Origin: a virus | DNA length: 42,863 bases | Reading direction: 5' to 3' (one strand) | Virus genome (UHGV): UHGV-0096616 | Shown here: piece by piece, positions 220 through 35,884 of the stretch | Layout of the letters: each line of letters starts with the position of its first letter | Numbering within the stretch: position 1 is the first letter of the stretch | The notes under the pieces: generated by a model | What the model was told of the DNA's origin: nothing | The model's database searches: none | What the model saw: the letters and a program-made list of their open reading frames with translations, nothing else | Position numbers and translations under genes: made by a program

Positions 220-411
220 GTGAGTCAGGCAACCAGTATGCGAAAACGACACCGATTTAACAGTCGCATGACCCGTATCGTACTGCTCATCAGCTTTATC
301 TTCTTCTTTGGCCGTTTTATCTACTCGTCCGTCGGTGCCTGGCAGCACCATCAGAGCAAAAAAGAAGCTCAGCAATCCACACTCTCCGTCGAATCACCGG
401 TACAACGTTAG
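220..411 (+). CDS. yfgG: small host protein, YfgG-like (63 aa, hydrophobic core)
   Basis: ORF track; size, sequence and position upstream of yfgH/yfgI match my recollection of the E. coli guaA-neighbour locus. Confidence 0.5.
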   Translation: MSQATSMRKRHRFNSRMTRIVLLISFIFFFGRFIYSSVGAWQHHQSKKEAQQSTLSVESPVQR

Positions 412-721
412 CGGTTACCTTCTCCACTCTCACAGAACATAACGGCACCTCGCTGTCGGATGCTTTTGCTCTTTGAGATTATCAAAGCGGCAGATATTCT
501 TTCATCTTAAATTTTACGTCTTTGTTCTGACTGAAGTTCATCCTGTTCGGCTGCGAAATAAATACATCATTAATACATATGTTGTGATGATGTATTTTTA
601 TAAATTATTTCCCGCATGAATTTTAATAAATTTAATCTATTCCTTTATACGCAATACATTTACTTTCCTCTTTTGATGATCTTAAATGTCTTATTTTTCG
701 TAATGTGTATAACAAGGAATA

Positions 722-1240: not shown

Positions 1241-1255
1241 TGATCAGGAGGAGTC

Positions 1256-1795: not shown

Positions 1796-1831
1796 GCGAT
1801 GTCAGTAACTTCAAGCCTATGATTCGTGAGT

Positions 1832-1866
1832 ATAAAAAACCCTCTGTAGTAACAGAGGGTTTTGTT
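1832..1866. terminator. intrinsic terminator hairpin after yfgI (AACCCTCTGT-agta-ACAGAGGGTT then T-run), A-run on the other side
   Basis: Inverted repeat plus T-run read directly. Confidence 0.55.
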
Positions 1867-1886
1867 CATTCATAGTGCAGGGTTCA

Positions 1887-1903
1887 AATCATTCCCACTC
1901 AAT
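1887..1903 (+). repeat. attL core, AATCATTCCCACTCAAT
   Basis: Exact 17-bp copy of the sequence at 41234-41250. Confidence 0.7.
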
Positions 1904-2013
1904 TATTTACGGCATCCATAACCAATTGAGTGATAACATTTTTCCAAGACTTCATTTTTTTAGTACCGTTTTATATACCGTCACCGGAAATCAGTACCAT
2001 GAAAAATGCCATG

Positions 2014-2496
2014 CTATCTTGTCAGGGTGTCATACTGTTTTTCGCAGACTCTTCCGGCTTCGACTGCCCGGTCAGCATACTCTGCCAGTTGTCTGTTTCT
2101 CTCGAGAGATTTGCTGAGCACGTCGGCAAGCAAAACTCCGGTGTCTGCGGCTGACGACCCAGCGCCGACAATGGCGTTATAGTGCCTGAGCTGCTCACGG
2201 ATGGCAACGAGCTGTTGCTGCAACCGGCCAGCGCGAGCGGCAGCATCAAGAGCATCATTGCGCGCCTGGTCGATCCTCTGCTGCGCTTCACGTTCATTGA
2301 TCGATTTCTCCTGTTCGTAGTGCTGACGAACTCTCTCATCTTCGGTTTTGCGGTCTTCTTTCGCCTGTGCATACCCGGCGTCGTACTGACGACTGCCGTG
2401 TGCATTCCAGGCTACAACTCCTGATATGACCAGAACAGCAAACATCGCCATGATAACCAACTGTTTCCAGTATGCTTTTGCGAATGCCCAGATCAT
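2014..2496 (-). CDS. Rz-like i-spanin (160 aa; N-terminal TM helix, coiled-coil periplasmic domain)
   Basis: Immediately downstream of endolysin with ATGA start/stop overlap; TM plus coiled coil; contains an embedded lipoprotein ORF. Confidence 0.7.
2022..2258 (-). CDS. Rz1-like o-spanin lipoprotein embedded in the +1 frame of Rz
   Basis: ORF fully inside Rz in another frame; signal peptide [13 protein letters not shown] with lipobox; start could also be the upstream Met (to 2297). Confidence 0.55.
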   Translation of the reverse strand: MMLLMLPLALAGCSNSSLPSVSSSGTITPLSALGRQPQTPEFCLPTCSANLSRETDNWQSMLTGQSKPEESAKNSMTP

Positions 2497-3122
2497 GCCG
2501 CCAGCACCTTACTTGCAGTGATGTATCGCGCGCGCCGGTCATCAATGCCGTTCCGGCCACCATTGATAAGCAGAGTTACACGTGCAATATCTCCGGTATA
2601 CTTCATGCAGCCTTTGCTGGAGAAGAACCACGCCGCGCTACGAGCCGCGTATTCGTCCTGCGCCAGCAGTTCAGGACTCTCCAGCAGGTAAACCTTAAGA
2701 CCGTTTCCACAGTCACGATAGTTATTCAAACCGGTAATCTGGATAAGTCCGCGCCCACGGTAGTTCCAGCCATCGCCAGGAGCATTGTTACCCATGCGTT
2801 TGCTGTACACCAGATTTGCGATCGCACGCTGGCGCTCGAGTGGTAATGGCGGTTCACCAGCACGGCGACCCAGTGCGTTGGCTTGTCCCTGAGTGAGACG
2901 ACCAGCACGAACGAAGTTAGCCAGTCCGGTGACGCTGTAGTTGAAATTTTCCTGCAACCGGGTGAAGCCTCCAGACTCATGCCCGACCTGAGCAATAAAC
3001 ATTGCCTGATCTTCTGGTTTACTGATACCAAACTCTTTCATCGCAGAAGTTATATGCGAGAACCAGCGTGCGGCCAGCGCCTCGCTAATACCAGCAGCTC
3101 GCTGGAATTGTTTAATCTCCAT
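2493..3122 (-). CDS. Endolysin, glycoside hydrolase family 19 (chitinase-like) type
   Basis: Motifs VGHESGGF and [15 protein letters not shown]; start placed at internal ATG (MEIKQF) with GAGG RBS, not the longer track ORF. Confidence 0.85.
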
Positions 3123-3420
3123 GTTTAGACCTCGATACTTTGAAAATTTGAACGACGTTACCGCGCGTTTTAATAACCGCAGCGAGCATGACAGCGTTGA
3201 TAATGACCTCAGATAAATCCACAGCCATTGGCGTACGAAACCAGATTGCATAGGAGACACGAACCGGAATACTGGCCGCAGCAACAATCAGGAAATAAGC
3301 AAGCCACCCACCCCATCTTCGGTGTTGGGATCCGTTACGCCGGAATGTAACAACGCGAATTGCAATGCCAGTACAAATAACTGCATTGGTGATAAGCAAA
3401 AAAAGCTCATTAGTTACCAT
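3112..3420 (-). CDS. small membrane protein, holin/antiholin candidate (102 aa)
   Basis: 2-3 predicted TM helices; between the upstream holin-like gene and endolysin, overlapping both. Confidence 0.45.
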
Positions 3421-3811
3421 CGCCTTTTCTCCCAGGAATTAATTCGCGTGGATTGTCGGAACGGTGATAGAGCCATATACCAATGCGCACAGCGACAATT
3501 GCTGACACAAATGCGCCAGCAGAGAAAACAATCCCTTTTTCAAAAGAGTCCTGCGTGATAGTAGGGATCAGGCTGGCTATGCCGATAAGAATTGATGCTG
3601 CTGGTTTATAAAAAAGAAGGCCGCAGAGAAAGCTAAGCATCGACAAGAGTACACGACGACGAATGGGATACTCTACCGCAGAGGTAACAAAAATTACCGC
3701 TCCAGCCAAAGCCCCCAAAGCAACCTCAGGAGGAACTCCTGCTATCACCGCCGCCAGAGAACTCATGCTAAGCCACTGATTTAAAGTTTCACTGGTTAGT
3801 TGAGCTGACAT
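3410..3811 (-). CDS. putative holin (about 133 aa, multi-TM)
   Basis: Hydrophobic helices, charged C-terminus; first gene of the lysis cassette; start moved to ATG at 3811 with GGTGGA RBS. Confidence 0.5.
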   Translation of the reverse strand: MSAQLTSETLNQWLSMSSLAAVIAGVPPEVALGALAGAVIFVTSAVEYPIRRRVLLSMLSFLCGLLFYKPAASILIGIASLIPTITQDSFEKGIVFSAGAFVSAIVAVRIGIWLYHRSDNPRELIPGRKGDGN

Positions 3812-3956
3812 GTTTTCCACCGTTTATATGCATTACAACCTCCTAAATGGTAAGTCACAAAGCATAATAAACCATTTATGGTTTATTGTTACTTTCTTAC
3901 AGCAAAAATACTGTCATTGGTATTGGTAAAAGCCCACCCAAGGTGGTGATTTAGGG

Positions 3957-3989
3957 ATAACAGTAAAAGACCACCTCACTATGAGGTGG
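3957..3989 (-). terminator. intrinsic terminator downstream of the tail spike gene (CCACCTCA-tag-TGAGGTGG then U-rich tract on the - strand)
   Basis: Inverted repeat read from sequence. Confidence 0.45.
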
Positions 3990-4069
3990 CTGAGTTATAA
4001 ATAGATGATGTATTATCAATTTTTGGGATTCCCATCATTAATTAATGGGAAAAATTAAAATAGAATAGT

Positions 4070-6646
4070 CTATTTTAACACCCATCCTGTATTTCCTGTT
4101 CCTGTTTTCTTTTGATACCAATCACCATTATAATCAATGTACATTGACCCCTGAGGTGCGGTCACAACACCCTCAGGTGAACCGGAGCCTCTATAAATTC
4201 CAAAGAGAGTTGTACCTCTTACTTTCTCGTATGCAAACAACAAACCATCTGAAGCCCTTCTGATACGCAACGGTTCGTGCTCTGAGTCCGATGCAAATGT
4301 AGTGGTTCCGTTTGAATCTGTTTCCCTGGAAAAACTTCCATCTGTTCTTGTTCCTTCAATGATCGAATTTGGGTAGTTTGGATCATCAGATGAATGTAAC
4401 CTAATATAGGAACTATTTGATGCTGATACCCCCCTACCCCTTAAAATCAATCCCTTAAATGATGACGTAAATAGTGCCTGGATTGAGCCATAAACAGTGT
4501 TATCACTACCGTTTTGCTGATCGTATATTCTTAATCTTGAGCTATTATCATACATAATAGCTTTGAAGTACTCACCAAGACGTTCGCTAAATGCAACAAT
4601 ATTAAAAGCATTGCGCCATCTAAATGATATATTTCGCCCGCTTTCTCCGGCATCTGCACCTGCATTACTTGAAGCATTGGTTATGCCAGAATTAAGGTTC
4701 TGCTCATCGTTGTTACCAGTCGCTGGTCGTATAGAGTAAATTGTCTTTTTCTCAAGAGAATAGCTACTTCCCCATCCATAATCTATTTCAGGACTCCAGT
4801 CTCCAGAATTTGCATCCTTGGTTGTTTCTACCCAATAAGAGCCATTTGATGGAGGGACACCAATTATTCCAGAAGTCTCAATGGATGATGCAGCCCATCT
4901 TCTTCCACGCCAGTTTACAATATTAGCTCCTGCCCTCCATGTTTCTATGCAGCTTATAATTATTTCTTCACCACGAATAGTTAGACCTTCCGGCTCAAAT
5001 CTGGCTGGATTCCCAAGAGTTGGATGGTTAAGCAACCCATCGCGCCCATATTGCGACCTTGCATCATCGATATCTAATTTTCTTAGTAAATTACCTGTTA
5101 AATCATATGTAAAGATATGATGCTTTCCAAAAGCATTAGCCCCCCCCTTAAGTATATGTATATATCTTCCATCAGACGCAATACCTTGTACAGAGTAAGC
5201 GCCTTCAGAAGGTGAGTCGCTCATTTCCCAAACAAACATGGGGTTTGCTAATGTTTTATCTTCAAGTTTATCAATTGATATTTTATCGTATATAAATACA
5301 GTTCGTTTAGCGGCATCACTCTTTGGTGTATTAACCATTATTAAAAGACGACCGTCAGAAGAAATGGCAATTCCTGCACGATTGTAATCTTGAAATGGGT
5401 GACCGCTACCAGTAATCCCCCATACATTATAACTTTTTACGTCAGACTGAGTTGTTCCTGCCCCTCGCCAAGTTATTTTACTAAACCCTTTGCCTGCAGA
5501 CTCCCCATCTTCACCTGAATTGGTTACACTTGATGTATATAAATATACTTGACCATTCTCCACCATGGCAGAAATATCAAATCCGTGCCCAAGGTTTAAT
5601 TCTGGAGAATACGCAACATGGTTTACTACCCTTCCATCATCATAAAGATTAAACTCAACAATACGAACTCTTTCTTTATCTGACCAGGTTGGCCCAACAG
5701 GCCGTTGTGTGACAAATAGTTTTTCAATGCCATTAACACGGCAATATGCGATCCCCTGTAACGCATTTCTGGCATTAGGATAAATTTCTGTGTTTGTTTC
5801 TCCCTGAAAACCAAAAAAAGGTTCCATCATTTTTCTCTGCACAAGTTTGTCAGTTTCAAGTAGACGAGAAACTGAAATAAGAGATCCATTATCAGCAACA
5901 ATCCTCCCAATACCTTGAACAGAAGATACATCAACTTCGAGAGTATTTACTGCAAAATCGCCATTAGGAACAAACGCTCTGTGGCCTGCATTAGAGAACG
6001 CCTCCGTAGAATCAGTTATTCCATCTCCCTTTGCACCAAAATCGCTAACACTGACGATATCTCTCATCTTATCCTGGAACGTTCGGTATACTGCTCCAGA
6101 ACCATACTGAATAAACCAACCAAAACCACCAACAACCCCGGCGATTGCAGCATCGACATAATTACGCATTGAGCGATTATTTACAGCATCCTGCTCAAGT
6201 GATGGATCTGCAAGGTTAGAAATTCTGTTTTGCTTTGCATCGTAATATTTTGCAAGCAGAGAGGGCTTCATCAATGCACGTCTGAACCACCCAAAACATT
6301 GCTGGATCAGCATCGTCAGATAGTCAAAGGCATCCTCATGCACTTCGGGGAAAAACTTTCCCTGATTGCGAAGGTCTGTCTCCTGCACCACATCAAGCAC
6401 ACGATCTATCGTAATTCGCCAGCCAGCAGCAAGCGGCGACGGAAGAACCACAGAACCGCCACTATAAGTGCCCGCCCCAGTTACCGTATAACCGGTATCC
6501 AGAACCAATTCTGTTACGTTCCCGTTCAGGTCAGACACCTGAACAACCAGGTCGGATTTTTTGAAAATACGGAAGGTATACGGAAATGATGTCGTAACGC
6601 CGTTACCTGTGTATTCGTTGTGGTCAACTTCGGTTGAGACCGTCAT
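4070..6646 (-). CDS. Tail spike / tail fiber (858 aa): T7 gp17-like N-terminal adaptor domain plus beta-helix-like receptor-binding/depolymerase body
   Basis: N-terminal ~120 aa resemble podovirus tail-fiber adaptor domains; DFGAKGDGITD motif typical of tailspike beta-helices; visibly AT-rich; GGAG RBS. Confidence 0.75.
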   Translation of the reverse strand: MTVSTEVDHNEYTGNGVTTSFPYTFRIFKKSDLVVQVSDLNGNVTELVLDTGYTVTGAGTYSGGSVVLPSPLAAGWRITIDRVLDVVQETDLRNQGKFFPEVHEDAFDYLTMLIQQCFGWFRRALMKPSLLAKYYDAKQNRISNLADPSLEQDAVNNRSMRNYVDAAIAGVVGGFGWFIQYGSGAVYRTFQDKMRDIVSVSDFGAKGDGITDSTEAFSNAGHRAFVPNGDFAVNTLEVDVSSVQGIGRIVADNGSLISVSRLLETDKLVQRKMMEPFFGFQGETNTEIYPNARNALQGIAYCRVNGIEKLFVTQRPVGPTWSDKERVRIVEFNLYDDGRVVNHVAYSPELNLGHGFDISAMVENGQVYLYTSSVTNSGEDGESAGKGFSKITWRGAGTTQSDVKSYNVWGITGSGHPFQDYNRAGIAISSDGRLLIMVNTPKSDAAKRTVFIYDKISIDKLEDKTLANPMFVWEMSDSPSEGAYSVQGIASDGRYIHILKGGANAFGKHHIFTYDLTGNLLRKLDIDDARSQYGRDGLLNHPTLGNPARFEPEGLTIRGEEIIISCIETWRAGANIVNWRGRRWAASSIETSGIIGVPPSNGSYWVETTKDANSGDWSPEIDYGWGSSYSLEKKTIYSIRPATGNNDEQNLNSGITNASSNAGADAGESGRNISFRWRNAFNIVAFSERLGEYFKAIMYDNSSRLRIYDQQNGSDNTVYGSIQALFTSSFKGLILRGRGVSASNSSYIRLHSSDDPNYPNSIIEGTRTDGSFSRETDSNGTTTFASDSEHEPLRIRRASDGLLFAYEKVRGTTLFGIYRGSGSPEGVVTAPQGSMYIDYNGDWYQKKTGTGNTGWVLK

Positions 6647-7414: not shown

Positions 7415-8110
7415 ATGACAGCTACAAAAAGCACGTCCATTTTTTCTTTCGAATCCCAAGCCGATATACGAGTAATCGTCATTAATGGTGAGCCATGGTT
7501 TATCGCTTCAGATGTTTGTCGGGCTATAGGCATAGCAAACCATCGAGATGCTGTTCGAAAACTTGATGATGATGAGAAGGGCGTCGCTTCAACCGACACC
7601 CCTGGCGGTGAGCAAGAATCGATCATCATCTCCGAGTCAGGCCTCTACACACTGATCCTCCGCTGCCGCGACGCAGTGACACCAGGCACTATCCCATACC
7701 GCTTTCGTAAATGGGTTACAGGTGAGGTTCTTCCTCAGATCCGCCGCACCGGAAGTTACATTAAAAACTCGCTCCCGCAGGAAGAGCGCATAAAGATGGT
7801 TGCCGACCAGGTAGCCAACGCCACAGCATCAGCAGTGATGCAGGCGATGAAGATAGAGAACAAAACCTACAGTGCCCCACTGAAGCCCGGCTACCGCAGC
7901 CTGATTCATTCGCCGTCTGGTGTTCTCGGCCTGACGGAGAACTCACTGCTGATGAATCTGCTGAACCAGTTACAGGACGACGGGCACGACGTATCGGGCG
8001 CGGCGGCGGAGCTGACCACCATGTTCTGCTACATCGTCGGTGTGAGCAAATGCCTGCGTGATATCCAGACACACGCGGAGTACATCAACGACAAGGCTGG
8101 GTTCTTCTGA
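7415..8110 (+). CDS. Bro-N domain protein (231 aa), putative antirepressor
   Basis: N-terminal Bro-N-like domain; C-terminal domain homologous to the 6842-7099 product; RBS AAGG. Confidence 0.65.
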   Translation: MTATKSTSIFSFESQADIRVIVINGEPWFIASDVCRAIGIANHRDAVRKLDDDEKGVASTDTPGGEQESIIISESGLYTLILRCRDAVTPGTIPYRFRKWVTGEVLPQIRRTGSYIKNSLPQEERIKMVADQVANATASAVMQAMKIENKTYSAPLKPGYRSLIHSPSGVLGLTENSLLMNLLNQLQDDGHDVSGAAAELTTMFCYIVGVSKCLRDIQTHAEYINDKAGFF

Positions 8111-8180: not shown

Positions 8181-8197
8181 ATTACCTTAAAGGTAAA
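8181..8197. promoter_or_regulatory. palindrome ATTACCTTAAAGGTAAA (site 3) just downstream of promoter (-35 TTGCAG 8154-8159, -10 TACTAT 8177-8182)
   Basis: Dyad overlapping -10/+1 and adjacent to the AAGGAGG RBS of the 8209 ORF. Confidence 0.5.
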
Positions 8198-8208
8198 GGA
8201 GGCGCGAT

Positions 8209-8376
8209 ATGACAGCGTTGAAAAATCGTACTCAGCACAATGAACAAGCCAAGCAATGCTGGGATGTCATTGGAAAAGTTATGCTTGGCCGCGCAAGCAA
8301 AGAGCGCGACAAGGATATGGTTTACCAGACAGGAACATCTTTCAGCGACTTCAAGGCGGCATTTCGCTCCAAATAG
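8209..8376 (+). CDS. small hypothetical protein (55 aa)
   Basis: Strong RBS AAGGAGG 7 nt upstream of ATG; first gene of a two-gene accessory unit. Confidence 0.4.
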   Translation: MTALKNRTQHNEQAKQCWDVIGKVMLGRASKERDKDMVYQTGTSFSDFKAAFRSK

Positions 8377-8396
8377 AAGCACATTAGGAGTTTGTC

Positions 8397-8837
8397 TTGA
8401 AGTTTAACATTAGAATATCTAATAGTTTTCTAAATGGGGAAAGCAACACCCATTTCGCTGTAGACGGACCTTTCCTTACTGACGATGAAATAAAAATCAT
8501 ACAAAGGTTTTTAGAAGATGTTGCCAATGGAAGGGCGCTTGTTGGAAAAAACAAGCCATCGTGGGTTGATGATAACCATGATAAAATTCCCGGCTCAGAC
8601 AATTATGAGCAAGAGAATTATTGGCATTATCATTGTGGGCCAACATGGTATCCAAACACATTTAAGAATTATACCATTAACTTAAATTTCAACCCTGGCG
8701 GAATGCATTCTAATGAATGCATTCATTATGCAAAAAATGATAATGAAATTGTCGTTGTTGGATTTTCAAGAGAACACATACCTTTCCTTTCATCAGATGG
8801 AAACGACAATCCGCTTTTTTATGATGAAGAAGAATAG
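8397..8837 (+). CDS. AT-rich accessory (moron) protein, 146 aa, acidic C-terminus, unknown function
   Basis: TTG start with AGGAG RBS; visibly much lower GC than neighbours; followed by intrinsic terminator; no family recognised. Confidence 0.5.
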   Translation: MKFNIRISNSFLNGESNTHFAVDGPFLTDDEIKIIQRFLEDVANGRALVGKNKPSWVDDNHDKIPGSDNYEQENYWHYHCGPTWYPNTFKNYTINLNFNPGGMHSNECIHYAKNDNEIVVVGFSREHIPFLSSDGNDNPLFYDEEE

Positions 8838-23205: not shown

Positions 23206-23498
23206 TCCTGTTCACTGGCCTCTTTGGCCATCTTCAAATACTGTTCAGGGCAATGCGCCATAACGCGCTGAAACAGTTCCAGCGCCAGATTGCGTTGCCC
23301 CTCATTAAATGCCATTGCCATAGCGTCCATCGGTGAGATAGCGGAAAACACACGGCCTTTCTCCAGCACCGACCAGACAACGCGACGCCCCTGTTCACTG
23401 CTCATGACAAAGCGAATGTCATCAATTTCACGCTGTGCCATGTCACGTTGCTTACGGGCGTTTTCTTCTTTCAGTTGATCATCTTCGTAATCTGTCAT
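23202..23498 (-). CDS. small hypothetical head-morphogenesis protein (98 aa)
   Basis: Translationally coupled between portal and scaffold. Confidence 0.4.
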   Translation of the reverse strand: MTDYEDDQLKEENARKQRDMAQREIDDIRFVMSSEQGRRVVWSVLEKGRVFSAISPMDAMAMAFNEGQRNLALELFQRVMAHCPEQYLKMAKEASEQE

Positions 23499-25174
23499 TG
23501 TGATTGCCCACCCTGACCACTAACTGCATTCGCCATAGCTGACAAAACACTCGGATCCGAAGTTTTAGCTTCGCTTAGCGTCTTGGCACCCTGTGCCGCC
23601 GCCATCCCCATCGCCATCATTTGTTGCTGCTGTTGTTGCTGTGCCCGTTGCTGGCGAGCCTGCTCAACCTGTTCCTGCGGAACAATGACGGTTGGAGACA
23701 CTCCGGACATATCAGCGAATGCATCGATCGCCTGATCAACGTTGAGTTTGTCGAGAGCTTCTGGTTTCGCTTGCGCAAGTTGACCAATGAAGTTAACCGT
23801 GGACGCCAGACTGGACAGGCCGATAGACTTCTGCGCCTGAGCCATGACGGAAATGTATTCGACCTTCAGGGGCATACCTTCCATCGCGTGAGGCGGTGGC
23901 GGCAGCATGTTTTTACGCACCATCATCGAGAAAGCGCGGTCAATGAGAGGGTTAAGACATTCGTCGTTCAGACGCTCCAGAACCGGCCCCAACATCAGAA
24001 GTTTTTCTTCTTTCATTTCGATCACCGCTTCAACAGGCATCGAGCGGGTATTGATGTTCTGCAACATCATGAACAGATCGACAAAGTAGGCGCTGTTAAT
24101 GATTTGACGAGTGTCCTGAATGTCTGCCACCAAATCTGCTGTACTGGGGTTAACCAGATAAGCAGGCCTGAAGCCATCCTGACCAGTAATCTGATCGATA
24201 TACGTGATGTCGCCAGGAAGAAGGGAGGCGCGCTGATTCTTGAGGGAAGTCGGAGCAACCATCGGCGGATTGGTGGCTTTATCAATCAACTGCGACTTGC
24301 GCTTCTGGAGAAGCTGCAATGCCTTAACAGGTCCAAGCGCCAGCATACCCGGGCATGATGATCCATAAACATCTTCGCCGTTAACTTCCCAGCGCGGAGC
24401 CATAATTGGAAACTCATCGAATCCGGACTCACGCAACAACTTGTCGTTATCGCCACCAACCTCGTAATAAACCGATTTGAATGGCTTGTTCTTGCTATCC
24501 AGCTTCGATGTATCGCGGTCAATGTTCGGGTAAACCGAATGCATCACTTCAATCCACTTCTCGTAGGTGCCGCTTTCCCACATGCTTTTTACGGATTCGC
24601 TGACGTTATTTAGCCCGAACTCCTGAACAAGCTGACGAACAGTCATAGAGAACTTGCGAAAACAGGTGTCCACACTGCCACGAGGTGAGTTAGCCAGGTA
24701 GTAACTGCCTATCGGGAATGGCATTGTGCGAATGATGTCCTCGTCATCCTCCAGCACCGCCATTGCACCAGTGCTGTATGTGCCGAGGCTTCCGTATAAC
24801 TGCGGCAGCGACTGATAGAGATTCGACTTATTGAACATATCGTTCATGCGGTTCTGCACCGCCTCAAGCCACAACTTAACAGGGCCATAATCCATCATTT
24901 CAGGATCTGGCGTAGCCAGGCGAAACCACGGACGCGCGGGGCTTGTGATGCCTGACATCATGCCGCTGGCGAGAGTGCGCGCCGCCATAGTCCCGGTCGA
25001 ATCAATAATGCGTGTATTGCGTCGATCGTTACGGTTGACCTCAGAAGTCAGAAAGCGGGAACCACGTGGGTTGATGTAATCACTCAACTCGCGCCAGTGC
25101 GGCTCGAACGACTGACGCTCGCTTTCAAGTTGTGCGAACTGTTTGTTCAATCGCTCTTTAGTTGTTTCCGCCAT
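23495..25174 (-). CDS. portal (head-to-tail connector) protein, 559 aa
   Basis: Size, position after terminase, Q-rich C-terminal tail. Confidence 0.75.
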   Translation of the reverse strand: MAETTKERLNKQFAQLESERQSFEPHWRELSDYINPRGSRFLTSEVNRNDRRNTRIIDSTGTMAARTLASGMMSGITSPARPWFRLATPDPEMMDYGPVKLWLEAVQNRMNDMFNKSNLYQSLPQLYGSLGTYSTGAMAVLEDDEDIIRTMPFPIGSYYLANSPRGSVDTCFRKFSMTVRQLVQEFGLNNVSESVKSMWESGTYEKWIEVMHSVYPNIDRDTSKLDSKNKPFKSVYYEVGGDNDKLLRESGFDEFPIMAPRWEVNGEDVYGSSCPGMLALGPVKALQLLQKRKSQLIDKATNPPMVAPTSLKNQRASLLPGDITYIDQITGQDGFRPAYLVNPSTADLVADIQDTRQIINSAYFVDLFMMLQNINTRSMPVEAVIEMKEEKLLMLGPVLERLNDECLNPLIDRAFSMMVRKNMLPPPPHAMEGMPLKVEYISVMAQAQKSIGLSSLASTVNFIGQLAQAKPEALDKLNVDQAIDAFADMSGVSPTVIVPQEQVEQARQQRAQQQQQQQMMAMGMAAAQGAKTLSEAKTSDPSVLSAMANAVSGQGGQSQ

Positions 25175-25188: not shown

Positions 25189-25395
25189 TTACTGACCAAG
25201 CAGCGTTTTACCGCCGGTCTTAGCGGTTGATGTGTCGCCCTGAGAACCGGTAAGCAGCGTAGAACTACGACCAGCAGCAGCGCGACGGCGACGAGTTTCT
25301 TCGTCGCGGGCATCAACAACGGCGGCATCCTGCTCCTGTGGTGCTGCCTGAACTTCTGGTGTTGCAGGCACTGATGGTGAGCTACCCATGCACAT
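25189..25395 (-). CDS. small acidic hypothetical protein (68 aa)
   Basis: GGAG RBS; upstream of portal; an alternative overlapping frame exists. Confidence 0.3.
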   Translation of the reverse strand: MCMGSSPSVPATPEVQAAPQEQDAAVVDARDEETRRRRAAAGRSSTLLTGSQGDTSTAKTGGKTLLGQ

Positions 25396-25484
25396 ATCAA
25401 TGACTCCGTACGCAATTAAATTATTACCAATTTAACCACATATGATTTATTTATCGTAGATAGTTGACATTTAACGCACAAATT

Positions 25485-25501
25485 ATTACCTTTCAGGTAA
25501 C
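25485..25501. promoter_or_regulatory. palindrome ATTACCTTTCAGGTAAC (site 4) with -35 TTGACA at 25464-25469
   Basis: Dyad 17 bp downstream of a consensus -35; faces the noncoding leader and tRNA. Confidence 0.5.
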
Positions 25502-25822
25502 CAAAGAGTTCATTCCGGTTACTAACCTGACTGGCTTGTCGTTAAATTGAACAGGTGGAGTGAGCTTTTATTTTGAGCAGTACGGCGTATGGCACATGCG
25601 CCGATAGCGGTCTGGATACGTTTAAGGGGCACCCTCCCTTGCTCGGGCAAACGAACCAGGTAGCCGGAATGTGCAAGTCGAGCGGTTTTATTCCGCGCAC
25701 GGGGATTCACCATCCCGGCGATTCGGTGTGACGCCTCGGAAGAGACGAGGGTACAACGATGAGAGCATTTATGGAGCCGCGACAAAGTGTGGTGCCTTAA
25801 CAGGCTAAGTGCTCTCAGCGTT

Positions 25823-25899
25823 GTGGCATTAGCTCAGTTGGACAGACCAACCGCCTTCTAAGCGGTTGGTCGCAGGTTCGAATCCTGCATGCCACGCCA
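25823..25899 (+). tRNA. tRNA-Arg (anticodon UCU)
   Basis: Cloverleaf read by hand: acceptor stem GTGGCAT/ATGCCAC, T-arm GCAGG-TTCGAAT-CCTGC, anticodon loop CTTCTAA, 3-prime GCCA; one D-stem mismatch. Confidence 0.85.
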
Positions 25900-26062
25900 G
25901 AATCACGCCTAAGGACCGTGATGCCAGAAGTTCCAGGTGCTTGGCGGTGATGGTTTCCCTTGAAGGACTATCACCGCCCTTTTTACAGCAGGACGCCATT
26001 GCGATGACTTCATGCTGTAAACCAGTACAGCCACGGAAGGCATAACTCATTGCTTCCAGTTC

Positions 26063-26086
26063 GCCCGGTTCGCCGGGCATTTTTTT
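26063..26086 (+). terminator. intrinsic terminator (GCCCGG-ttcg-CCGGGC then A-TTTTTTT)
   Basis: Perfect hairpin plus T7 run after the tRNA. Confidence 0.7.
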
Positions 26087-26101
26087 GCTTGATGACCGCA
26101 A

Positions 26102-26118
26102 ATTACCTTAAAGGTATA
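26102..26118. promoter_or_regulatory. palindrome ATTACCTTAAAGGTATA (site 5) inside a promoter (-35 ATGACC 26092-26097, -10 TATAAT 26115-26120)
   Basis: Dyad between -35 and -10 with 17-bp spacing. Confidence 0.5.
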
Positions 26119-26145
26119 ATCATGAAAAACTTCAAGGTAATTAGC

Positions 26146-26940
26146 ATGTTTGAATCGTTTAAAGAGCTGTTTTTATCTACTGCCAATACTGCCGTGAATA
26201 GAGCCAAAAACCCTGTGCTTGGTGCTTTTGTTATGTCCTGGTGCGCCTTCAACTGGAAATCAATTCTTTATCTATTTTTTAGCAAATCAAACATAATAGA
26301 TAAAATTTCATATATCTCAGATAACAGCACATGGAAAACTGTTATGTTTTATCCATGCTTATCTGTAATTGCTATCTGCTGCCTATTACCATGGGTAAAC
26401 AATATCATTAACGTATGGCAAGCAAAGCCTCTTGATAATAATGACTCAATCGAAAATCACCTGAAGGCAAGAAAAATCCAGCGTGAAACAAGACTGCAGA
26501 GGTTATTGGCTAAAAAAGATGTTACATACGACAAAGTTAAGACTGGCGCGGAAAAAGACATCCAAGAGATGAAAGAAGAGATTATTCGATCAAAGAATAG
26601 TATGGGGGAATTGACTGCCGAGTTGAAAGCTAAAGATGACGAATTGAGATCCGCCAGTGCTCAGTTAGCAGCTCTAAATCATTCATTAAAAGAGATATCG
26701 GAAACTCTTGGAAGAATGAATGAGGCATATAATACCCTCCAAAATGATTTCGACGAATACAAACTCAAATACCCTGAAAAATCTCAAATAAAAAGCCTTG
26801 CACTTGGCAACGGCCAAACAATTAGCAACTTTTTGGAGCAACACAACTTATCCGGATTAAAATCTGGTAAGCCAAACGTTTTTAATAACTTTGGTGTTCT
26901 ATCTGGATTATCAGGTTTCGAGGATAAAAATAAAGACTAA
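26146..26940 (+). CDS. AT-rich accessory (moron) membrane protein with long C-terminal coiled coil (~264 aa); candidate superinfection-exclusion/abortive-infection factor
   Basis: Two predicted TM helices then coiled coil; visibly low GC; opposite strand to the late operon; own promoter and terminator; start set at ATG 26146 (AAGG RBS) because the track start at 26122 abuts the -10. Confidence 0.5.
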   Translation: MFESFKELFLSTANTAVNRAKNPVLGAFVMSWCAFNWKSILYLFFSKSNIIDKISYISDNSTWKTVMFYPCLSVIAICCLLPWVNNIINVWQAKPLDNNDSIENHLKARKIQRETRLQRLLAKKDVTYDKVKTGAEKDIQEMKEEIIRSKNSMGELTAELKAKDDELRSASAQLAALNHSLKEISETLGRMNEAYNTLQNDFDEYKLKYPEKSQIKSLALGNGQTISNFLEQHNLSGLKSGKPNVFNNFGVLSGLSGFEDKNKD

Positions 26941-28412
26941 GCATATGGATCGTACTCGGTAAGCGCCTTGCCTTGCTGGTTCTGCTGCCCGGGAAGTCGC
27001 AGGCGCTTTGACACCGGGAAAGCAAACGTCAGCAGTAGCGCATCGCCTTTACCCGGCGAACGCCCAAGCCGCTCCTTGATATCTTCCTTCGGTTCGATAA
27101 CGATTTTACCGTCCACTCGAACTTTGTACTCTGCCGCCGACAGGTCGTCCGCTGTTTCCTGGTCATCCAGCATGCCGCCCAGCCTCAGCCATGTCTTGCA
27201 TGCATTGAACATCTCCCCACGCTTGTTAAGCATCTGCGGGTCAGTGGACGCACCGCCGAACGGAACAAGTTGCCATGTACGTCCCCAGCCATCACCGATT
27301 GACTTCAAACCGGTTCCGTAACCGAAGTCGATGAACACCGCGTCAGCCTGGTACTGGTCTTCAAAGTCAGCGATACGCTTCGCCATAATCAGATCGTCGG
27401 TGGTCTTGTTGCCAGTCCACAACACCTTACTGTGCAGCCCCTGCCGCAGGTATATCACAGCGTCATCAACGCCGGAGTATGCAGGGTCAACGCCGATTAT
27501 CACCGGAGCATGTGCCACCTGCGCAGCAGTTACCACCCGTTTCATTGCCTCGTCAGTAAGACCGGTAGGGATAAACTGCAATTCAGATGCATCAGGGAAT
27601 ATGCCGCGCACACGGATTTTAACGAAGTCGCTGTCTTCCCCGTAGTCATCAACCCATTTCTGCAACTGCTGTTTGTTGGTGCCTTCCACCGTCCGGCTGT
27701 CAATCTGCGCAGTTTTCCAGCGGTGTTTATATTTGCGGAAACATTCGCGGAAACGCCCGGTATTACGCGTCGGGTTCCCGAACGCCACCCAGATGATTTC
27801 GGTGTCTTCGTCCGTCAGCGCACCCTCTGCTACCTCCCACACCAGATCGGCAATGTTGGATGCTTCGTCGAAAACCACGATGATGCGTTTGCGCTCGTTG
27901 TGTAGTCCGGCGAATGCCTCAGTGTTGTGCTCAGACCAGGGGATTGCGTCAGCTCGCCACCGCTTGTCGTGCCCAGGATCATTGCTGTACATCGCGGTAG
28001 CGGTACAGGTAAACCAGTCTTTCGTGATGGCAAGGTTCGACCACTTGATAATTTCCGGCCAGGTCTTCGTTCGTAGCTGGTTGTCGGTGTTGGCGGTCAC
28101 CACGACCTTACAATCCTCGCAAGTGGACATGCCCCAGTTGATCAGCATTGAGATGAATGCGGATTTACCAATACCGTGACCAGAAGCGCGTGCCAGCATA
28201 AGCGGCTGATATCGCGTCTCTGGATTCTGCAGGTGATCACGTATCTCTCGGAACGCATCGGCCTGCCACTGACGTGGACCGGTGGCATGTGCCAGTTCAG
28301 TACCCTCTTCCCCCCACGGGAACGCATAGAGGGCATAGCCAAGCGGATCGTGAGTGAACCCTGCAATATCCTCGATCAACTGCTCTTCAGGAGATAACGC
28401 TGTATCTGTCAC
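26937..28412 (-). CDS. terL: terminase large subunit (491 aa)
   Basis: Walker A-like ASGHGIGKS in the N-terminal ATPase, acidic nuclease-type C-terminal half, position after terS. Confidence 0.85.
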   Translation of the reverse strand: MTDTALSPEEQLIEDIAGFTHDPLGYALYAFPWGEEGTELAHATGPRQWQADAFREIRDHLQNPETRYQPLMLARASGHGIGKSAFISMLINWGMSTCEDCKVVVTANTDNQLRTKTWPEIIKWSNLAITKDWFTCTATAMYSNDPGHDKRWRADAIPWSEHNTEAFAGLHNERKRIIVVFDEASNIADLVWEVAEGALTDEDTEIIWVAFGNPTRNTGRFRECFRKYKHRWKTAQIDSRTVEGTNKQQLQKWVDDYGEDSDFVKIRVRGIFPDASELQFIPTGLTDEAMKRVVTAAQVAHAPVIIGVDPAYSGVDDAVIYLRQGLHSKVLWTGNKTTDDLIMAKRIADFEDQYQADAVFIDFGYGTGLKSIGDGWGRTWQLVPFGGASTDPQMLNKRGEMFNACKTWLRLGGMLDDQETADDLSAAEYKVRVDGKIVIEPKEDIKERLGRSPGKGDALLLTFAFPVSKRLRLPGQQNQQGKALTEYDPYA

Positions 28413-29005
28413 TGATTACCATCCTGACGTTCTTTGAGTCGCTTCCTGGCTGCTGCTATGCGATCAGCAATTGTCACATTCACATTAACATCCAGACGTT
28501 CTTTGAACGCGTTGACATCAACATGCTTACCAATCAGTTCTAGGTTCTTCACCTTGTCAGGCCATTTAATTTTTTTGAGGATTGTCTCTATCGAATCCTC
28601 GTTCATGTTCATGATGGTCGATGACAGATCAAAGCCACTAAGCGTAGTGCGCCAGATTTTCGGCCACTCACGGATTGGTTTAAGGCTCCCATCGTCGTTG
28701 AGGATATCGATCACGTCCATCTGGTCGATCTCCACCAAGCGCATGAGAACGTAATCAGCACTGACGCGCATTCGTTTGTTGCGCTCCTCCATCAACTCGG
28801 CAATCCGTTTTTGAATGCGTTCATCGCGCATCATGACACTGGCTTTAACTGCCGCTGTATTTGGGGAGAATCCTGCGTTAATCGCAGCCTGAGTCTGGTT
28901 TTCAGGCGTTTTGATGTATGACTGGCAATAAGCCTCCTGCATTGCTGTGAGCGGCTTAAATTGCGTTGATTTGCGTTTATAGGTTTTAGGTTCAGCAGGC
29001 ATCAT
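28409..29005 (-). CDS. terS: terminase small subunit (about 198 aa)
   Basis: Overlaps the terL start; start moved to MMPAEP because the longer track N-terminus is translated from operator-like repeats. Confidence 0.6.
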   Translation of the reverse strand: MMPAEPKTYKRKSTQFKPLTAMQEAYCQSYIKTPENQTQAAINAGFSPNTAAVKASVMMRDERIQKRIAELMEERNKRMRVSADYVLMRLVEIDQMDVIDILNDDGSLKPIREWPKIWRTTLSGFDLSSTIMNMNEDSIETILKKIKWPDKVKNLELIGKHVDVNAFKERLDVNVNVTIADRIAAARKRLKERQDGNQ

Positions 29006-29021
29006 AACCACCGTGGTAATA

Positions 29022-29038
29022 GTTACCGTTGTGGTAAT
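29022..29038. promoter_or_regulatory. palindrome GTTACCGTTGTGGTAAT (site 6) at the start of the late operon
   Basis: TTACC-N5-GGTAA dyad 17 bp upstream of the terS start, with extra GGTAAT half-sites nearby. Confidence 0.45.
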
Positions 29039-29044
29039 AGTACC

Positions 29045-29074
29045 ATGCAAAATAAAGCCGCCATAGTTGGCGGC
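29045..29074 (-). terminator. intrinsic terminator on the - strand upstream of terS (GCCGCC-aactat-GGCGGC then TTTATTTTG)
   Basis: Hairpin plus U-rich tract. Confidence 0.5.
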
Positions 29075-29123
29075 AGTATTCAAAACCCGTCAAATTCATC
29101 ATGCATAATCTACTCGTGACATG

Positions 29124-34914: not shown

Positions 34915-35145
34915 TCATGAGTAGAAGAAGTATGCCAGTTCTGCTTTTGAGCGCAGCCATTGTCTTGTTTTACAGGCTTTAAAAAGCCCATTCATCAATA
35001 CTTTACCTGGCATTTTGCGCTTACCTGTTAAGTGAGTCTGGATATAGTGACTCGTCGTTCCGGCTTCCTGTGCGAAGGCTTCACGCTCATCCGGAGTAAG
35101 TGCAAGCCAGTGCTTTTTGAAATCGAAATGTCCGTTATCGCTCAT
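34915..35145 (-). CDS. Cro-like small HTH regulator (76 aa)
   Basis: Small basic HTH protein, first gene of the leftward early operon, divergent from the repressor. Confidence 0.5.
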   Translation of the reverse strand: MSDNGHFDFKKHWLALTPDEREAFAQEAGTTSHYIQTHLTGKRKMPGKVLMNGLFKACKTRQWLRSKAELAYFFYS

Positions 35146-35299: not shown

Positions 35300-35884
35300 A
35301 TGAAAAGTATCCAGGACGTCCGCAGGCAAAATCTCAACGACTTGATCGACCGTGAATTCAATGGTGTTCAGACGCGGATGGCTGAAAAACTTGGAACTCA
35401 GGCAAATCTGGTAAACCGCTGGGCTCTTGGTAAGAAGGTTATCGGCGATCAGGTTGCGCGAAAAATTGAAGCTGCCGCCAATAAACCCCGTAACTGGCTT
35501 GATATCGATCGCTCGCTTTCTCAGGAAGGTTTTCAGCCTGTCGGCCCAAGCGACATTGGCCAGCTGGCGGCTCACAACCTGGAACGCTGGATGAGCGAAA
35601 GCCGCGACCTTTCAACACAGGGAAAACTTCACCGCGCATCCGGCGTAGCCCAGGTGACAATCAGCCGCCTGTTAAACAATGAGGTCAGCGTTTCCATTTC
35701 CACCCTGGAGAATGTTGCATCCGCATTCGGGCGTCACGGCTATGAATTACTGATTCACCCGCACGACCCTGCGACCATCAACTATGATCGCTCGCGCTAC
35801 GCATTGTTACCCGAAACCGAGAAAGCAAAGATCGAAAGTTACATTGAATTTGTCATCAACCAGAACGAAAAAAACAAACAATAA
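35300..35884 (+). CDS. CI-like prophage repressor with two HTH domains and no S24 peptidase domain (194 aa)
   Basis: Two XRE-type HTH segments; divergent from cro-like operon; followed by a terminator. Confidence 0.6.
   Translation: MKSIQDVRRQNLNDLIDREFNGVQTRMAEKLGTQANLVNRWALGKKVIGDQVARKIEAAANKPRNWLDIDRSLSQEGFQPVGPSDIGQLAAHNLERWMSESRDLSTQGKLHRASGVAQVTISRLLNNEVSVSISTLENVASAFGRHGYELLIHPHDPATINYDRSRYALLPETEKAKIESYIEFVINQNEKNKQ

What the first reader, a model, noticed from the sequence alone, without database searches (positions are those of the whole stretch)
26092..26940. Moron between terL and portal: membrane-anchored coiled-coil protein with its own repressible promoter and terminators
The gene is on the opposite strand to the late operon that surrounds it and is visibly AT-rich. 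The protein has two N-terminal TM helices and a ~150-aa coiled coil with a Gly/Ser-rich tail. Its promoter (-35 ATGACC, -10 TATAAT) contains operator site 5, and the upstream terminator isolates it from the tRNA transcript. Membrane plus coiled-coil architecture at a moron site is typical of superinfection-exclusion or abortive-infection proteins, but no specific family is recognised.
Basis: partly seen in the sequence, partly recalled or inferred. Interest (0 to 1): 0.7.

Follow-up and report, generated by a model that had tools for sequence, protein, structure and literature searches.

The report
Repressor-controlled prophage membrane coiled-coil gene
A real accessory gene sits backwards between the DNA-packaging and portal genes of a phiV10-like E. 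coli prophage. It encodes an uncharacterised inner-membrane protein with a long coiled-coil stalk, its promoter carries the prophage repressor's binding site, and its function (perhaps excluding rival phages) is still untested.

Summary
An AT-rich (36% GC) + strand gene lies between terL and tRNA-Arg/portal of a Uetakevirus (phiV10/epsilon15-like) prophage. It is a replaceable cassette, 26087-26936: phiV10 carries an unrelated gp49/66-family gene at the same junctions.

Corrections:
- The true start is ATG 26146 (264 aa), not 26122.
- Two + strand terminators lie upstream. None lies downstream, and the stop codon overlaps the terL stop.

The promoter (ATGACC-17-TATAAT) contains a perfect 13-bp palindrome, TACCTTAAAGGTA. 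This motif occurs 14 times in the window (0.24 expected), including the cI-cro region, so it is inferred to be the immunity operator. Four diverged alleles in Uetakeviruses keep it at the same promoter position. The gene is therefore predicted to be off in lysogens and on after infection or induction.

The protein has two TM helices (N-in/C-in), a roughly 116-residue cytoplasmic helical stalk and a disordered Gly/Ser/Asn-rich tail. The N-terminal 160 aa are under strong purifying selection; the C-terminal part is mosaic. The family is large (PHROG 4780 and relatives; about 1400 clusters) and found here only in temperate phages. It has no Pfam, PADLOC, PDB or BFVD match and no literature.

Superinfection exclusion or abortive infection is the best guess (about 0.35) but is untested. 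This is a new member of a known kind, of moderate interest.

The parts
25823..25899 (+). tRNA-Arg (anticodon UCU), the upstream neighbour on the same strand. Its own promoter region carries operator site 25487-25499.
   Evidence: ARAGORN; Rfam tRNA, 62.5 bits; operator and promoter context.
25943..25988 (+). Terminator 1: a 14-bp stem followed by CTTTTT. The U-tract is on the + strand only.
   Evidence: Scan. RNA fold -23 kcal/mol, z = -4.6; the reverse strand has no U-tract.
25991..26022 (+). 32-nt near-invariant non-coding block (GACGCCATTGCGATGACTTCATGCTGTAAACC) between the two terminators. It travels with the cassette into other phages. Function unknown.
   Evidence: DNA alignments. Support for a conserved structure is weak.
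26063..26086 (+). Terminator 2 (GCCCGG-TTCG-CCGGGC followed by AT7). The end of its T-run is the left junction of the replaceable cassette.
   Evidence: Scan; fold -12.7 kcal/mol. Identity to phiV10 ends at 26086.
26087..26936 (+). Replaceable cassette (promoter, operator, leader and coding sequence). It is absent from phiV10, which has a Phage_gp49_66 gene between the same junctions.
   Evidence: blastn junctions at 26086 and 26935; phiV10 annotation; Pfam PF13876 on PhiV10p03.
26092..26120 (+). Sigma-70-type promoter: -35 ATGACC (26092-26097), 17-bp spacer, -10 TATAAT (26115-26120).
   Evidence: 10/12 match. The promoter core is conserved in E. coli, Klebsiella and Cronobacter homologues.
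26104..26116 (.). Operator: the perfect palindrome TACCTTAAAGGTA, lying in the spacer and overlapping the -10 by 2 bp.
   Evidence: 14 TACC-N5-GGTA sites in the window against 0.24 expected. Three sites lie in the cI-cro intergenic region. Symmetric consensus. The same promoter position is kept in the P0110 allele, EC.W1-9 and BUCT711.
26134..26137 (+). Shine-Dalgarno AAGG, 8 nt before ATG 26146.
   Evidence: Read from the sequence. Equivalent purine-rich leaders occur in homologues.
26146..26940 (+). Coding sequence, 264 aa plus stop (true start). The TAA at 26938-26940 overlaps the terL stop on the opposite strand.
   Evidence: Homologues begin at the equivalent Met. The PHROG 4780 alignment starts at residue 9 of the 272-aa ORF. 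dN/dS 0.07.
26212..26280 (+). TM1 (residues 23-45), weakly hydrophobic. N36 and W37 are conserved in at least 90% of 109 diverse members.
   Evidence: Hydropathy; family statistics; conservation; AF2 helices 23-35 and 37-45.
26332..26421 (+). TM2 (residues 63-92), strongly hydrophobic, with conserved P70 and P82.
   Evidence: Kyte-Doolittle 2.15; conservation; AF2.
26422..26769 (+). Cytoplasmic helical stalk (residues 93-208). The basic juxtamembrane part up to about residue 160 is conserved; the distal coiled coil is variable.
   Evidence: AF2 predicts a single helix 63-208 at pLDDT 94-98. Heptad score. Charge distribution favours N-in/C-in. Alignment A1.
26770..26937 (+). Disordered Gly/Ser/Asn/Leu-rich C-terminal tail (residues 209-264), ending KNKD. 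It is hypervariable between alleles.
   Evidence: pLDDT below 50; composition; mosaic C-termini.
26937..28412 (-). terL (491 aa), the convergent neighbour. Its stop overlaps the stop of the cassette gene.
   Evidence: ORF list; PGAP annotates it as 'terminase'; synteny with phiV10 terL.

Best explanation
**What is shown**
The region is an autonomous accessory-gene cassette (promoter, operator, leader, coding sequence) in the variable slot between terL and tRNA-Arg/portal of a Uetakevirus prophage. It encodes a 264-aa protein. Both ends of a two-TM hairpin are predicted to lie in the cytoplasm. TM2 continues without a break into a helix of about 17 nm (my calculation: 116 residues at 1.5 Å each), probably a homo-oligomeric coiled coil. 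The helix ends in a disordered, allele-specific tail.

**What is inferred from sequence**
A perfect copy of the operator overlaps the -10 element. The prophage's 194-aa two-HTH repressor, and probably its Cro, should therefore shut the promoter off. The gene would be silent in an established lysogen, transcribed in a burst after infection or induction, and shut off again before convergent late transcription has to cross it. Copies that have moved into lambdoid phages, or that sit in prophage remnants lacking this repressor, would be expressed constitutively.

**Function (inference only)**
The conserved membrane domain is the working part: a small pore, or a binder of a conserved inner-membrane host component. 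The variable stalk end and tail give specificity. The most likely role is phage-against-phage exclusion at the inner membrane, by blocking DNA entry or by abortive membrane damage. This would protect the infected or induced cell, and would protect the host outright wherever the gene is derepressed.
For: **Cassette and regulation**
- Junctions, base composition and alternative cargo.
- Promoter and operator.
- Three operator sites lie between cI and cro; others sit at ant, int, tRNA-Arg and the recombination operon.
- The operator stays at the same promoter position in four diverged alleles, down to 43% protein identity, in phages whose genomes carry 12-15 such sites.
- It decays in Cronobacter and KO-TP1 and is a lone copy in a Klebsiella lambdoid prophage.

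**Protein**
- Hydropathy, and family-wide charge bias: N-terminus +0.96, loop -0.90, post-TM2 segment +2.19.
- AF2 model with mean pLDDT 85 and a single helix 63-208.

**Pointers towards an exclusion or defence role**
- The gene is dispensable and replaceable.
- Among 50,697 phage records only five carry a homologue. These are two Uetakeviruses, phages induced from or named after lysogens, and an inovirus, so temperate or chronic types. All other contexts examined are prophages.
- The gene is always solitary and opposite in strand to its neighbours.
- It is intact in a decayed prophage (ETEC4075) and in a Cronobacter remnant.
- The N-terminal 160 aa are strongly conserved (dN/dS 0.07), with polar and proline residues inside the TM helices conserved in at least 90% of 109 diverse members. 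The C-terminal ~100 aa are swapped between unrelated coiled-coil and tail types.
Against: - No experiment and no homology link the family to exclusion or defence. PADLOC matches only the coiled coils of SMC-like proteins. Pfam, NCBIfam, PDB and BFVD give nothing.
- All matching PHROGs are labelled 'unknown function'.
- A promoter repressed in the lysogen argues against the classic role of protecting a lysogen.
- Repressor binding to this motif is inferred from its distribution and has not been shown. No published description of the operators was found.
- One distant same-site member (L023) keeps only a half-site, so repressor control is not universal.
- C-terminal variability could simply reflect weak constraint on a spacer. 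Where it can be measured, dN/dS there is 0.22, which is still purifying.
- The topology is predicted, not measured.
Confidence: 0.35

Rival explanations
1. An early-lytic modulator of host physiology rather than a defence. The membrane domain would bind a conserved host inner-membrane machine (division, envelope synthesis, transport or stress signalling) just after infection or induction, as λ Kil or Qin DicB do. Any benefit would go to the phage's own cycle.
For: - The operator-controlled promoter places the gene in the same regulon as ant, int, the recombination and replication genes and the tRNA.
- The membrane and juxtamembrane part is highly conserved across host genera, which suits a conserved host target.
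- There is no hit to any defence model.
Against: - Homologues were found only in temperate or chronic phages and prophage remnants, never in the virulent phages of a 50,697-record collection.
- The gene is retained intact where the rest of the prophage has decayed.
- A hypervariable C-terminus is not expected for a pure host-target binder.
- The gene is dispensable in phiV10-type relatives.
Confidence: 0.25
2. A lysis-timing protein: holin-like, antiholin-like or spanin-like. The topology is that of class II holins (two TMs, N-in/C-in, charged C-terminus), and TM1 is weakly hydrophobic and Gly/Ala/Ser-rich, rather like a SAR domain. Alternatively it could be an Rz-like TM-plus-coiled-coil protein.
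For: - Predicted topology and the weak hydrophobicity of TM1.
- The combination of TM helix and coiled coil resembles i-spanins. This comparison rests on my own knowledge of those proteins.
Against: - The prophage already has a complete lysis cassette 22 kb away: two holin-family genes, a GH19 endolysin and a DUF2514 Rz-like spanin.
- No holin or spanin Pfam or PHROG family matches, even at E = 10, for five diverse N-terminal domains.
- The predicted promoter is of the early, repressor-controlled type, not late.
- The stalk is predicted to be cytoplasmic.
- There is no partner lipoprotein gene.
Confidence: 0.07
3. A virion-assembly or packaging accessory protein, for example one that tethers packaging to the membrane. 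This is suggested by its position between terL and portal.
For: Position only.
Against: - Opposite strand, foreign composition and its own early-type promoter.
- It is replaced by an unrelated gene in phiV10 and in 143 E. coli genomes.
- Homologues sit in the nin region of lambdoid phages, next to parA in another phage, and in an inovirus.
Confidence: 0.02
4. Not a functional gene: a chance ORF or a decaying remnant.
For: None beyond the absence of any annotation.
Against: - 264 stop-free codons in 36% GC DNA.
- dN/dS 0.07 in the N-terminal half.
- 177 close homologues, and about 1400 clusters at 50% identity with E below 1e-3.
- A confident AF2 model once the alignment is deep.
Confidence: 0.01

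Closest known systems
Phage 'morons' (HK97/λ-type autonomous promoter-gene-terminator cassettes inserted between late genes; concept cited from my own knowledge)
   Same: An extra gene between two late genes, with foreign (AT-rich) composition and its own sigma-70 promoter. It is absent from or replaced in close relatives at exact junctions, and it moves between unrelated temperate phages together with its promoter.
   Different: - There is no downstream terminator; the stop overlaps that of terL.
- The promoter carries the resident immunity operator, so the gene is predicted to be off in the lysogen, whereas classic morons are prophage-expressed.
- The slot has been occupied by this family over deep divergence, down to 28% identity. 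It is therefore more a long-standing variable accessory gene than a recent insertion.
Inner-membrane superinfection-exclusion proteins (T4 Imm, P22 SieA, HK97 gp15)
   Same: Small phage-encoded inner-membrane proteins, each a single solitary gene in an accessory position. T4 Imm is also an early-lytic exclusion gene. These properties are cited from my own knowledge.
   Different: - No sequence or profile similarity was detected.
- Those proteins have no 17-nm cytoplasmic coiled-coil stalk or variable tail.
- No phenotype is known for this family.
Two-TM abortive-infection effectors and class II holins/pinholins (SLATT-type 2TM effectors, RexB-like channels, S21 pinholin)
   Same: A two-TM hairpin predicted N-in/C-in, polar residues conserved inside the TM helices, and a weakly hydrophobic TM1. 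A conserved membrane module joined to a variable cytoplasmic module would suit a trigger-and-effector design.
   Different: - No Pfam, PADLOC or PHROG match to SLATT, holin or Rex families, even at E = 10.
- No associated sensor or enzyme gene; the gene is always solitary.
- It is not in the lysis cassette.
PHROG families 4780, 13369, 35327, 22645 and 24478 (phage protein clusters of unknown function)
   Same: This protein is a full-length member of phrog_4780 (E = 5e-137). All 109 diverse relatives hit phrog_4780 and phrog_13369.
   Different: These clusters carry no functional annotation, so membership names the protein but does not explain it.
Scattered single-repressor regulons of temperate phages (P1 C1 operators; compared from my own knowledge)
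   Same: One operator sequence is dispersed over the genome at many early or accessory promoters, including that of a tRNA gene.
   Different: A different repressor type (two HTH domains, 194 aa), a different operator sequence and a different phage lineage. Binding has not been shown experimentally.

Membership tests
Phage moron | Present between two adjacent genes that are contiguous, or differently filled, in related phages | tested here: met
   Identity to phiV10 stops at 26086 and resumes at 26935. phiV10 and 143 E. coli genomes carry a gp49/66-family gene there instead.
Phage moron | Base composition different from the flanking phage DNA | tested here: met
   GC 0.36 against 0.52-0.57; GC3 0.36 against 0.52-0.63.
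Phage moron | Own promoter upstream | tested here: met
   ATGACC-17-TATAAT, 10/12, conserved with the gene across genera. Sequence evidence only.
Phage moron | Own factor-independent terminator downstream | tested here: not met
   No + strand terminator between the stop and 28887. The stop overlaps the terL stop, and the downstream RNA fold has z = +0.43.
Phage moron | Expressed from the repressed prophage | not testable with these tools
   An operator overlapping the -10 predicts the opposite in the native phage. RNA-seq or a reporter assay is needed.
Known superinfection-exclusion / Abi / defence protein families (PADLOC-DB v2, Pfam, NCBIfam) | Significant profile match outside the coiled-coil region | tested here: not met
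   The only hits are to the coiled-coil arms of DndD, LmuB, JetC and SMC models. Nothing covers the N-terminal domain, either for this protein or for 109 relatives.
Known superinfection-exclusion / Abi / defence protein families | Reduces infection by a challenging phage when expressed | not testable with these tools
   No experimental data were found in the literature searches.
Class II holin / pinholin | Two TM helices, N-in/C-in, small size (about 70-100 aa), encoded in the lysis cassette | tested here: not met
   The predicted topology is compatible. However, the protein is 264 aa, lies 22 kb from the complete lysis cassette, and matches no holin family.
i-spanin (Rz-like) | A single N-terminal TM, a periplasmic coiled coil, a partner o-spanin lipoprotein, and location in the lysis cassette | tested here: not met
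   Two TM helices with a predicted cytoplasmic C-terminus. The window has its own DUF2514 Rz-like gene at 2014-2496. There is no adjacent lipoprotein ORF.
SLATT / 2TM effector domains | Profile match to the SLATT or DUF4231 families, and linkage to nucleotide-signalling or sensor genes | tested here: not met
   No Pfam hit at E up to 10 for five diverse N-terminal domains. The gene is solitary in every context examined.
PHROG 4780 | Full-length profile match | tested here: met
   E = 4.8e-137, covering residues 9-272 of the long ORF against profile positions 1-267 of 275.

The most novel reading that the evidence does not exclude
The family's conserved two-TM domain would be a previously unrecognised membrane effector: a pore, or a blocker of a DNA-entry route. 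A long coiled-coil stalk would hold it in check or aim it, and a hypervariable tail would recognise incoming phage components. Uetakeviruses would have wired it to the immunity repressor, so that it fires only during infection or induction. That would make it a lytic-phase-specific exclusion or abortive module of temperate phages, which becomes a constitutive host defence when it escapes to phages or remnants lacking the repressor.
Probability: 0.2. Interest if true: 0.6.

Novelty: new member of a known kind. Interest (0 to 1): 0.4.

Why it matters
If the exclusion reading is right, this names a large, unannotated family of single-gene phage-borne membrane proteins: about 1400 clusters at 50% identity, found in temperate podoviruses and siphoviruses and an inovirus (a chronic filamentous phage) of enteric bacteria and Vibrio. 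It would be a defence or exclusion candidate that current defence catalogues miss.

It would also give an example of an accessory gene whose promoter has been captured by the immunity repressor. Independently of function, two things are directly useful for annotating and engineering phiV10/epsilon15-like phages, which are used for O157 detection and typing:
- the dispersed operator TACCTTwAAGGTA, which defines the early regulon of these phages;
- the corrected start codon, since PGAP annotates this gene as 272 aa from the upstream ATG.

If the gene turns out to have no phage-related phenotype, it is an ordinary conserved hypothetical.

Tried and rejected
**Searches that found nothing**
- Pfam, NCBIfam and PADLOC on the protein gave only coiled-coil noise.
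- The same libraries on 109 diverse relatives, and on isolated N-terminal domains at E = 10, gave no family for the membrane domain.
- The PDB sequence profile search found nothing.
- The second AF2 model, from the deep alignment, was good (pLDDT 85). Foldseek against PDB and BFVD still gave nothing below E = 1.
- The afdb50 fold library was unavailable.
- A search with the C-terminal 85 aa alone returned only two fragments, so there is no evidence that the tail is shared with other protein families.
- Rfam found only the tRNA in 25300-27100.
- A consensus fold of the conserved 32-nt block plus terminator 2 had weak covariation support.
- Literature searches by accession, Uetakevirus, epsilon15 operator, phiV10 moron and membrane coiled-coil exclusion found nothing on this gene or on the operators.

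**Ideas rejected**
- ATG 26122 as the start codon.
- A downstream terminator.
- The palindrome as part of the resident phage's operator network everywhere: in Klebsiella prophage L009 it is the only such site in 16.7 kb.
- A frameshift in the ORFs after operator 8183: the cargo there is simply different from that in strain 20AR0300.
Full report
**Setting.** The window is a phiV10/epsilon15-like (Uetakevirus) prophage of E. coli integrated beside guaA. PGAP annotation of a 98.9%-identical region in strain 20AR0300 and synteny with phiV10 both show this. The late operon runs on the - strand: terS 28409-29083, terL 26937-28412, a 68-aa gene 25189-25395, portal 23495-25174, then the scaffold/protease and major capsid genes. 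Between terL and the 68-aa gene, two + strand elements interrupt it: tRNA-Arg(UCU) at 25823-25899 and the ORF of the finding.

- GC falls to 0.36 over 26050-26950, against 0.52-0.57 on either side.
- The ORF is under strong purifying selection: dN/dS is 0.07 over codons 1-150 against the ETEC4075 allele.
- It has 177 close homologues in Enterobacteriaceae.
- Its N-terminal 160 residues match about 1400 cluster representatives at E below 1e-3, 139 of them below 1e-10, in a library of 1.84 billion proteins.
- Two hairpin-plus-U-tract terminators follow the tRNA on the + strand (25943-25978 and 26063-26078). Their reverse complements lack U-tracts, so late - strand transcription can pass through them.

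**Corrections.**
1. The start codon is ATG 26146, not 26122. The -10 hexamer ends at 26120, so a transcript would begin near 26127, downstream of the first ATG. Nearly all homologues begin MLESLKEY..., aligned with M9, and the PHROG 4780 profile aligns from residue 9. Other copies have the leader 'aatcaGaaaaaa' where the window has 'aatcaTgaaaaa', so the upstream ATG is a point-mutation artefact. PGAP's 272-aa call is therefore eight residues too long.
2. There is no downstream terminator. TAA 26938-26940 overlaps the terL stop (CTA 26937-26939 on the + strand). No + strand terminator-like site occurs before 28887, and the RNA after the stop folds no better than shuffles.

**The cassette and the slot.** Against phiV10, identity (99%) ends at 26086, the last T of terminator 2, and resumes at 26935, the terL stop. 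In between, phiV10 has a 123-aa gene of the Phage_gp49_66 family (PF13876) with no promoter of its own. The unit 26087-26936 is thus a replaceable cassette. Among 5,426 complete E. coli genomes:
- 37 carry this allele over at least 80% of its length;
- about 19 more match only the N-terminal 60%, so they have other C-termini;
- 5 carry the 246-aa P0110 allele in full;
- 143 carry the gp49/66 alternative.

The slot has nevertheless been held by this family for a long time. The Klebsiella Uetakevirus BUCT711 has a 263-aa member (65% identity in the N-terminal domain) that also overlaps the terL end by 4 bp. E. coli phage EC.W1-9 has a 201-aa member (43% identity). A distant Uetakevirus-like prophage (L023) has a 273-aa member with only 28% identity. 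All three sit between terL and the portal-side genes on the opposite strand.

**Mobility.** The gene also lies, always alone and always opposite in strand to its neighbours:
- in the replication/nin region of Klebsiella lambdoid prophages;
- next to parA in another phage;
- in a Cronobacter prophage remnant;
- at 25% identity, in the variable region of a Vibrio inovirus.

The Klebsiella copies carry about 115 bp of the Uetakevirus sequence upstream of the promoter. KO-TP1 also keeps about 150 bp homologous to the 3' end of terL downstream of the gene. Transfer therefore went from a Uetakevirus context outwards, promoter included.

**The operator.** The promoter spacer contains TACCTTAAAGGTA (26104-26116), overlapping the -10 by 2 bp.
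- TACC-N5-GGTA occurs 14 times in the window where 0.24 are expected; none of 100 shuffles reached 14.
- The symmetrised consensus is tTACCTTwAAGGTAa.
- Three sites, two of them slightly degenerate, lie in the 154-bp gap between the divergent cro-like gene (34915-35145, -) and the 194-aa two-HTH repressor gene (35300-35884, +).
- Other sites sit immediately after the -10 of promoters for ant (7132), tRNA-Arg (25487) and the recombination operon (36005; TTGACA-17-AATTAT). One overlaps the -10 of the int promoter (41087), and two lie in the replication region (32838, 32900).

I infer that this is the immunity operator of a dispersed early regulon. No published description was found.

For the finding, the key point is positional conservation. 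The operator holds the same promoter position in the window allele, the P0110 allele (TACCTTAAAGGTAgaat), EC.W1-9 (TACCTTGAAGGTAagat) and BUCT711 (TACCATAACGGTAtact). These coding sequences have diverged down to 43% identity. The BUCT711 repressor is only 52% identical to the window's, yet its genome has 12 such sites. Outside this lineage the operator is an orphan (Klebsiella L009: the only site in 16.7 kb) or decaying (Cronobacter TGCCTAAAAGGTA; KO-TP1 TACCATAAGATAC; L023 a half-site).

Its consequence is that the gene should be off in a lysogen and on after infection or induction. A shut-off by Cro would also remove head-on transcription against the late operon, which has to read through the cassette. 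That last point is my inference.

**The protein.**
- Hydropathy gives TM1 at 23-45 (weak in this allele, Kyte-Doolittle about 1.2; family mean 1.55) and TM2 at 63-92 (2.15; family mean 2.10).
- Over 109 diverse members the net charge is +0.96 for the N-terminus, -0.90 for the inter-TM loop and +2.19 for the 33 residues after TM2. This favours N-in/C-in with a short periplasmic loop.
- With the deep alignment, AlphaFold2 gives mean pLDDT 85: helices 2-20, 23-35, 37-45 and 50-60, then one continuous helix 63-208 (pLDDT 94-98), then a tail below 50. The shallow-alignment model had been poor.
- The cytoplasmic part of the long helix is 116 residues, about 17 nm by my calculation. It shows a heptad pattern that is strongest over roughly residues 150-190.
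- The tail (209-264) is rich in Gly, Ser, Asn and Leu.
- R19, P23, G26, N36, W37, P70 and P82 are at least 90% conserved across the whole family. Among enteric members the first 160 residues are 50-75% identical, and after about residue 160 the sequences switch to unrelated coiled-coil and tail types.
- No Pfam, NCBIfam or PADLOC family, PDB sequence, PDB fold or BFVD fold matches the membrane domain.
- The matching PHROGs (4780, 13369, 35327, 22645, 24478) all have unknown function.

**What it most likely does.** Shown: a functional, mobile, single-gene accessory cassette for a bitopic membrane protein, with a promoter that overlaps the phage's operator. Inferred: cytoplasmic stalk, oligomerisation, repressor control. 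The function rests on indirect evidence only:
- the gene is dispensable and replaceable;
- it was found only in temperate or chronic phages and their remnants, just five of 50,697 phage records, none of them an evidently virulent phage;
- it is kept intact in a decayed prophage and in a remnant where the operator has eroded;
- the TM helices carry conserved polar and proline residues, so they are more than an anchor;
- the distal module is hypervariable.

Together these fit a phage-against-phage exclusion or abortive module best, and I give that 0.35. An early-lytic modulator of a host membrane process (Kil- or DicB-like) is the main rival at 0.25. A lysis-timing role is unlikely because the phage has a complete lysis cassette at 2014-3820 and no holin or spanin family matches. 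A virion or packaging role is very unlikely. A non-gene is excluded.

**Novelty and score.** The kind is familiar: an accessory membrane-protein gene of unknown function in a variable slot of a temperate phage. Three features are unusual. The immunity operator is embedded in the promoter and travels with the gene. There is no terminator of the gene's own. The family's residence in the terL/portal slot is old. No function is demonstrated. I rate it a new member of a known kind, interest 0.4.

Noticed in passing
window 3674, 6752, 7132, 8183, 25487, 26104, 29024, 32838, 32900, 34846, 35183, 35214, 35231, 35943, 36005, 41087: A dispersed operator, tTACCTTwAAGGTAa: 14 exact TACC-N5-GGTA sites where 0.24 are expected, plus two degenerate sites. 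It marks the cI-cro region and the promoters of ant, tRNA-Arg, int, the recombination operon and the replication region. This is a scattered single-repressor regulon in a Uetakevirus, conserved in EC.W1-9 (15 sites) and BUCT711 (12 sites). I found no published description.
   Followed up: partly
window 25991-26022: A 32-nt non-coding block (GACGCCATTGCGATGACTTCATGCTGTAAACC) between the two + strand terminators. It is identical or nearly so in phiV10, EC.W1-9, BUCT711 and a Klebsiella lambdoid prophage, and recognisable in KO-TP1, although the adjacent coding sequences have diverged. Rfam finds nothing and a consensus fold is weakly supported. It could be an sRNA, a processing signal, or a recombination junction carried along passively.
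   Followed up: partly
window 25823-25899, 4070-6646 and 26146-26937: The phage tRNA-Arg(UCU) has its own operator-bearing promoter. The tailspike gene uses 28 AGA/AGG codons, and the cassette gene uses AGA or AGG for 6 of its 8 Arg codons. terL, portal and the capsid gene use almost none. The tRNA probably serves the AT-rich, horizontally acquired genes.
   Followed up: partly
window 8183-8837, against L003 3085-3720: A second variable accessory slot lies downstream of ant. A perfect operator (8183) directly precedes a ribosome-binding site, and the cargo differs between this window (55-aa and 146-aa ORFs) and strain 20AR0300 (an unrelated 211-aa ORF). None has a Pfam match.
   Followed up: partly
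L002 (Klebsiella phage KO-TP1) 5424-5574, against window 26941-27092: KO-TP1, a lambdoid phage, keeps a roughly 150-bp non-coding remnant homologous to the 3' end of Uetakevirus terL just downstream of its copy of the gene. This shows the direction of horizontal transfer of the cassette.
   Followed up: yes
window 35300-35884 and 7415-8110: The repressor has two HTH domains and no S24 peptidase domain. An Ant protein (Bro-N domain) is encoded in the late region behind an operator-bearing promoter. Induction is probably by anti-repression rather than RecA-mediated cleavage. What releases ant from repression is unclear.
   Followed up: no
L012 (E. coli ETEC4075) 1-5517: In a decayed Uetakevirus prophage (portal and capsid are pseudogenes and the terminase is deleted), the tRNA-Arg and a 283-aa variant of the membrane coiled-coil gene remain intact.
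   Followed up: no
window 26122; L003 20723-21541: RefSeq/PGAP annotates this gene (WP_000787773.1) as 272 aa from an ATG that lies 1 bp after the -10 hexamer. Other gene callers extend it to 293-322 aa. The conserved start gives 264 aa.
   Followed up: yes
L001 (phiV10) 3038-3513: The alternative cargo at this slot is PhiV10p03, of the N4 gp49 / Sf6 gene 66 family (PF13876). It follows terminator 2 directly, with a ribosome-binding site but no recognisable promoter. It is therefore probably expressed only by read-through from the tRNA promoter. Its function is also unknown.
   Followed up: no
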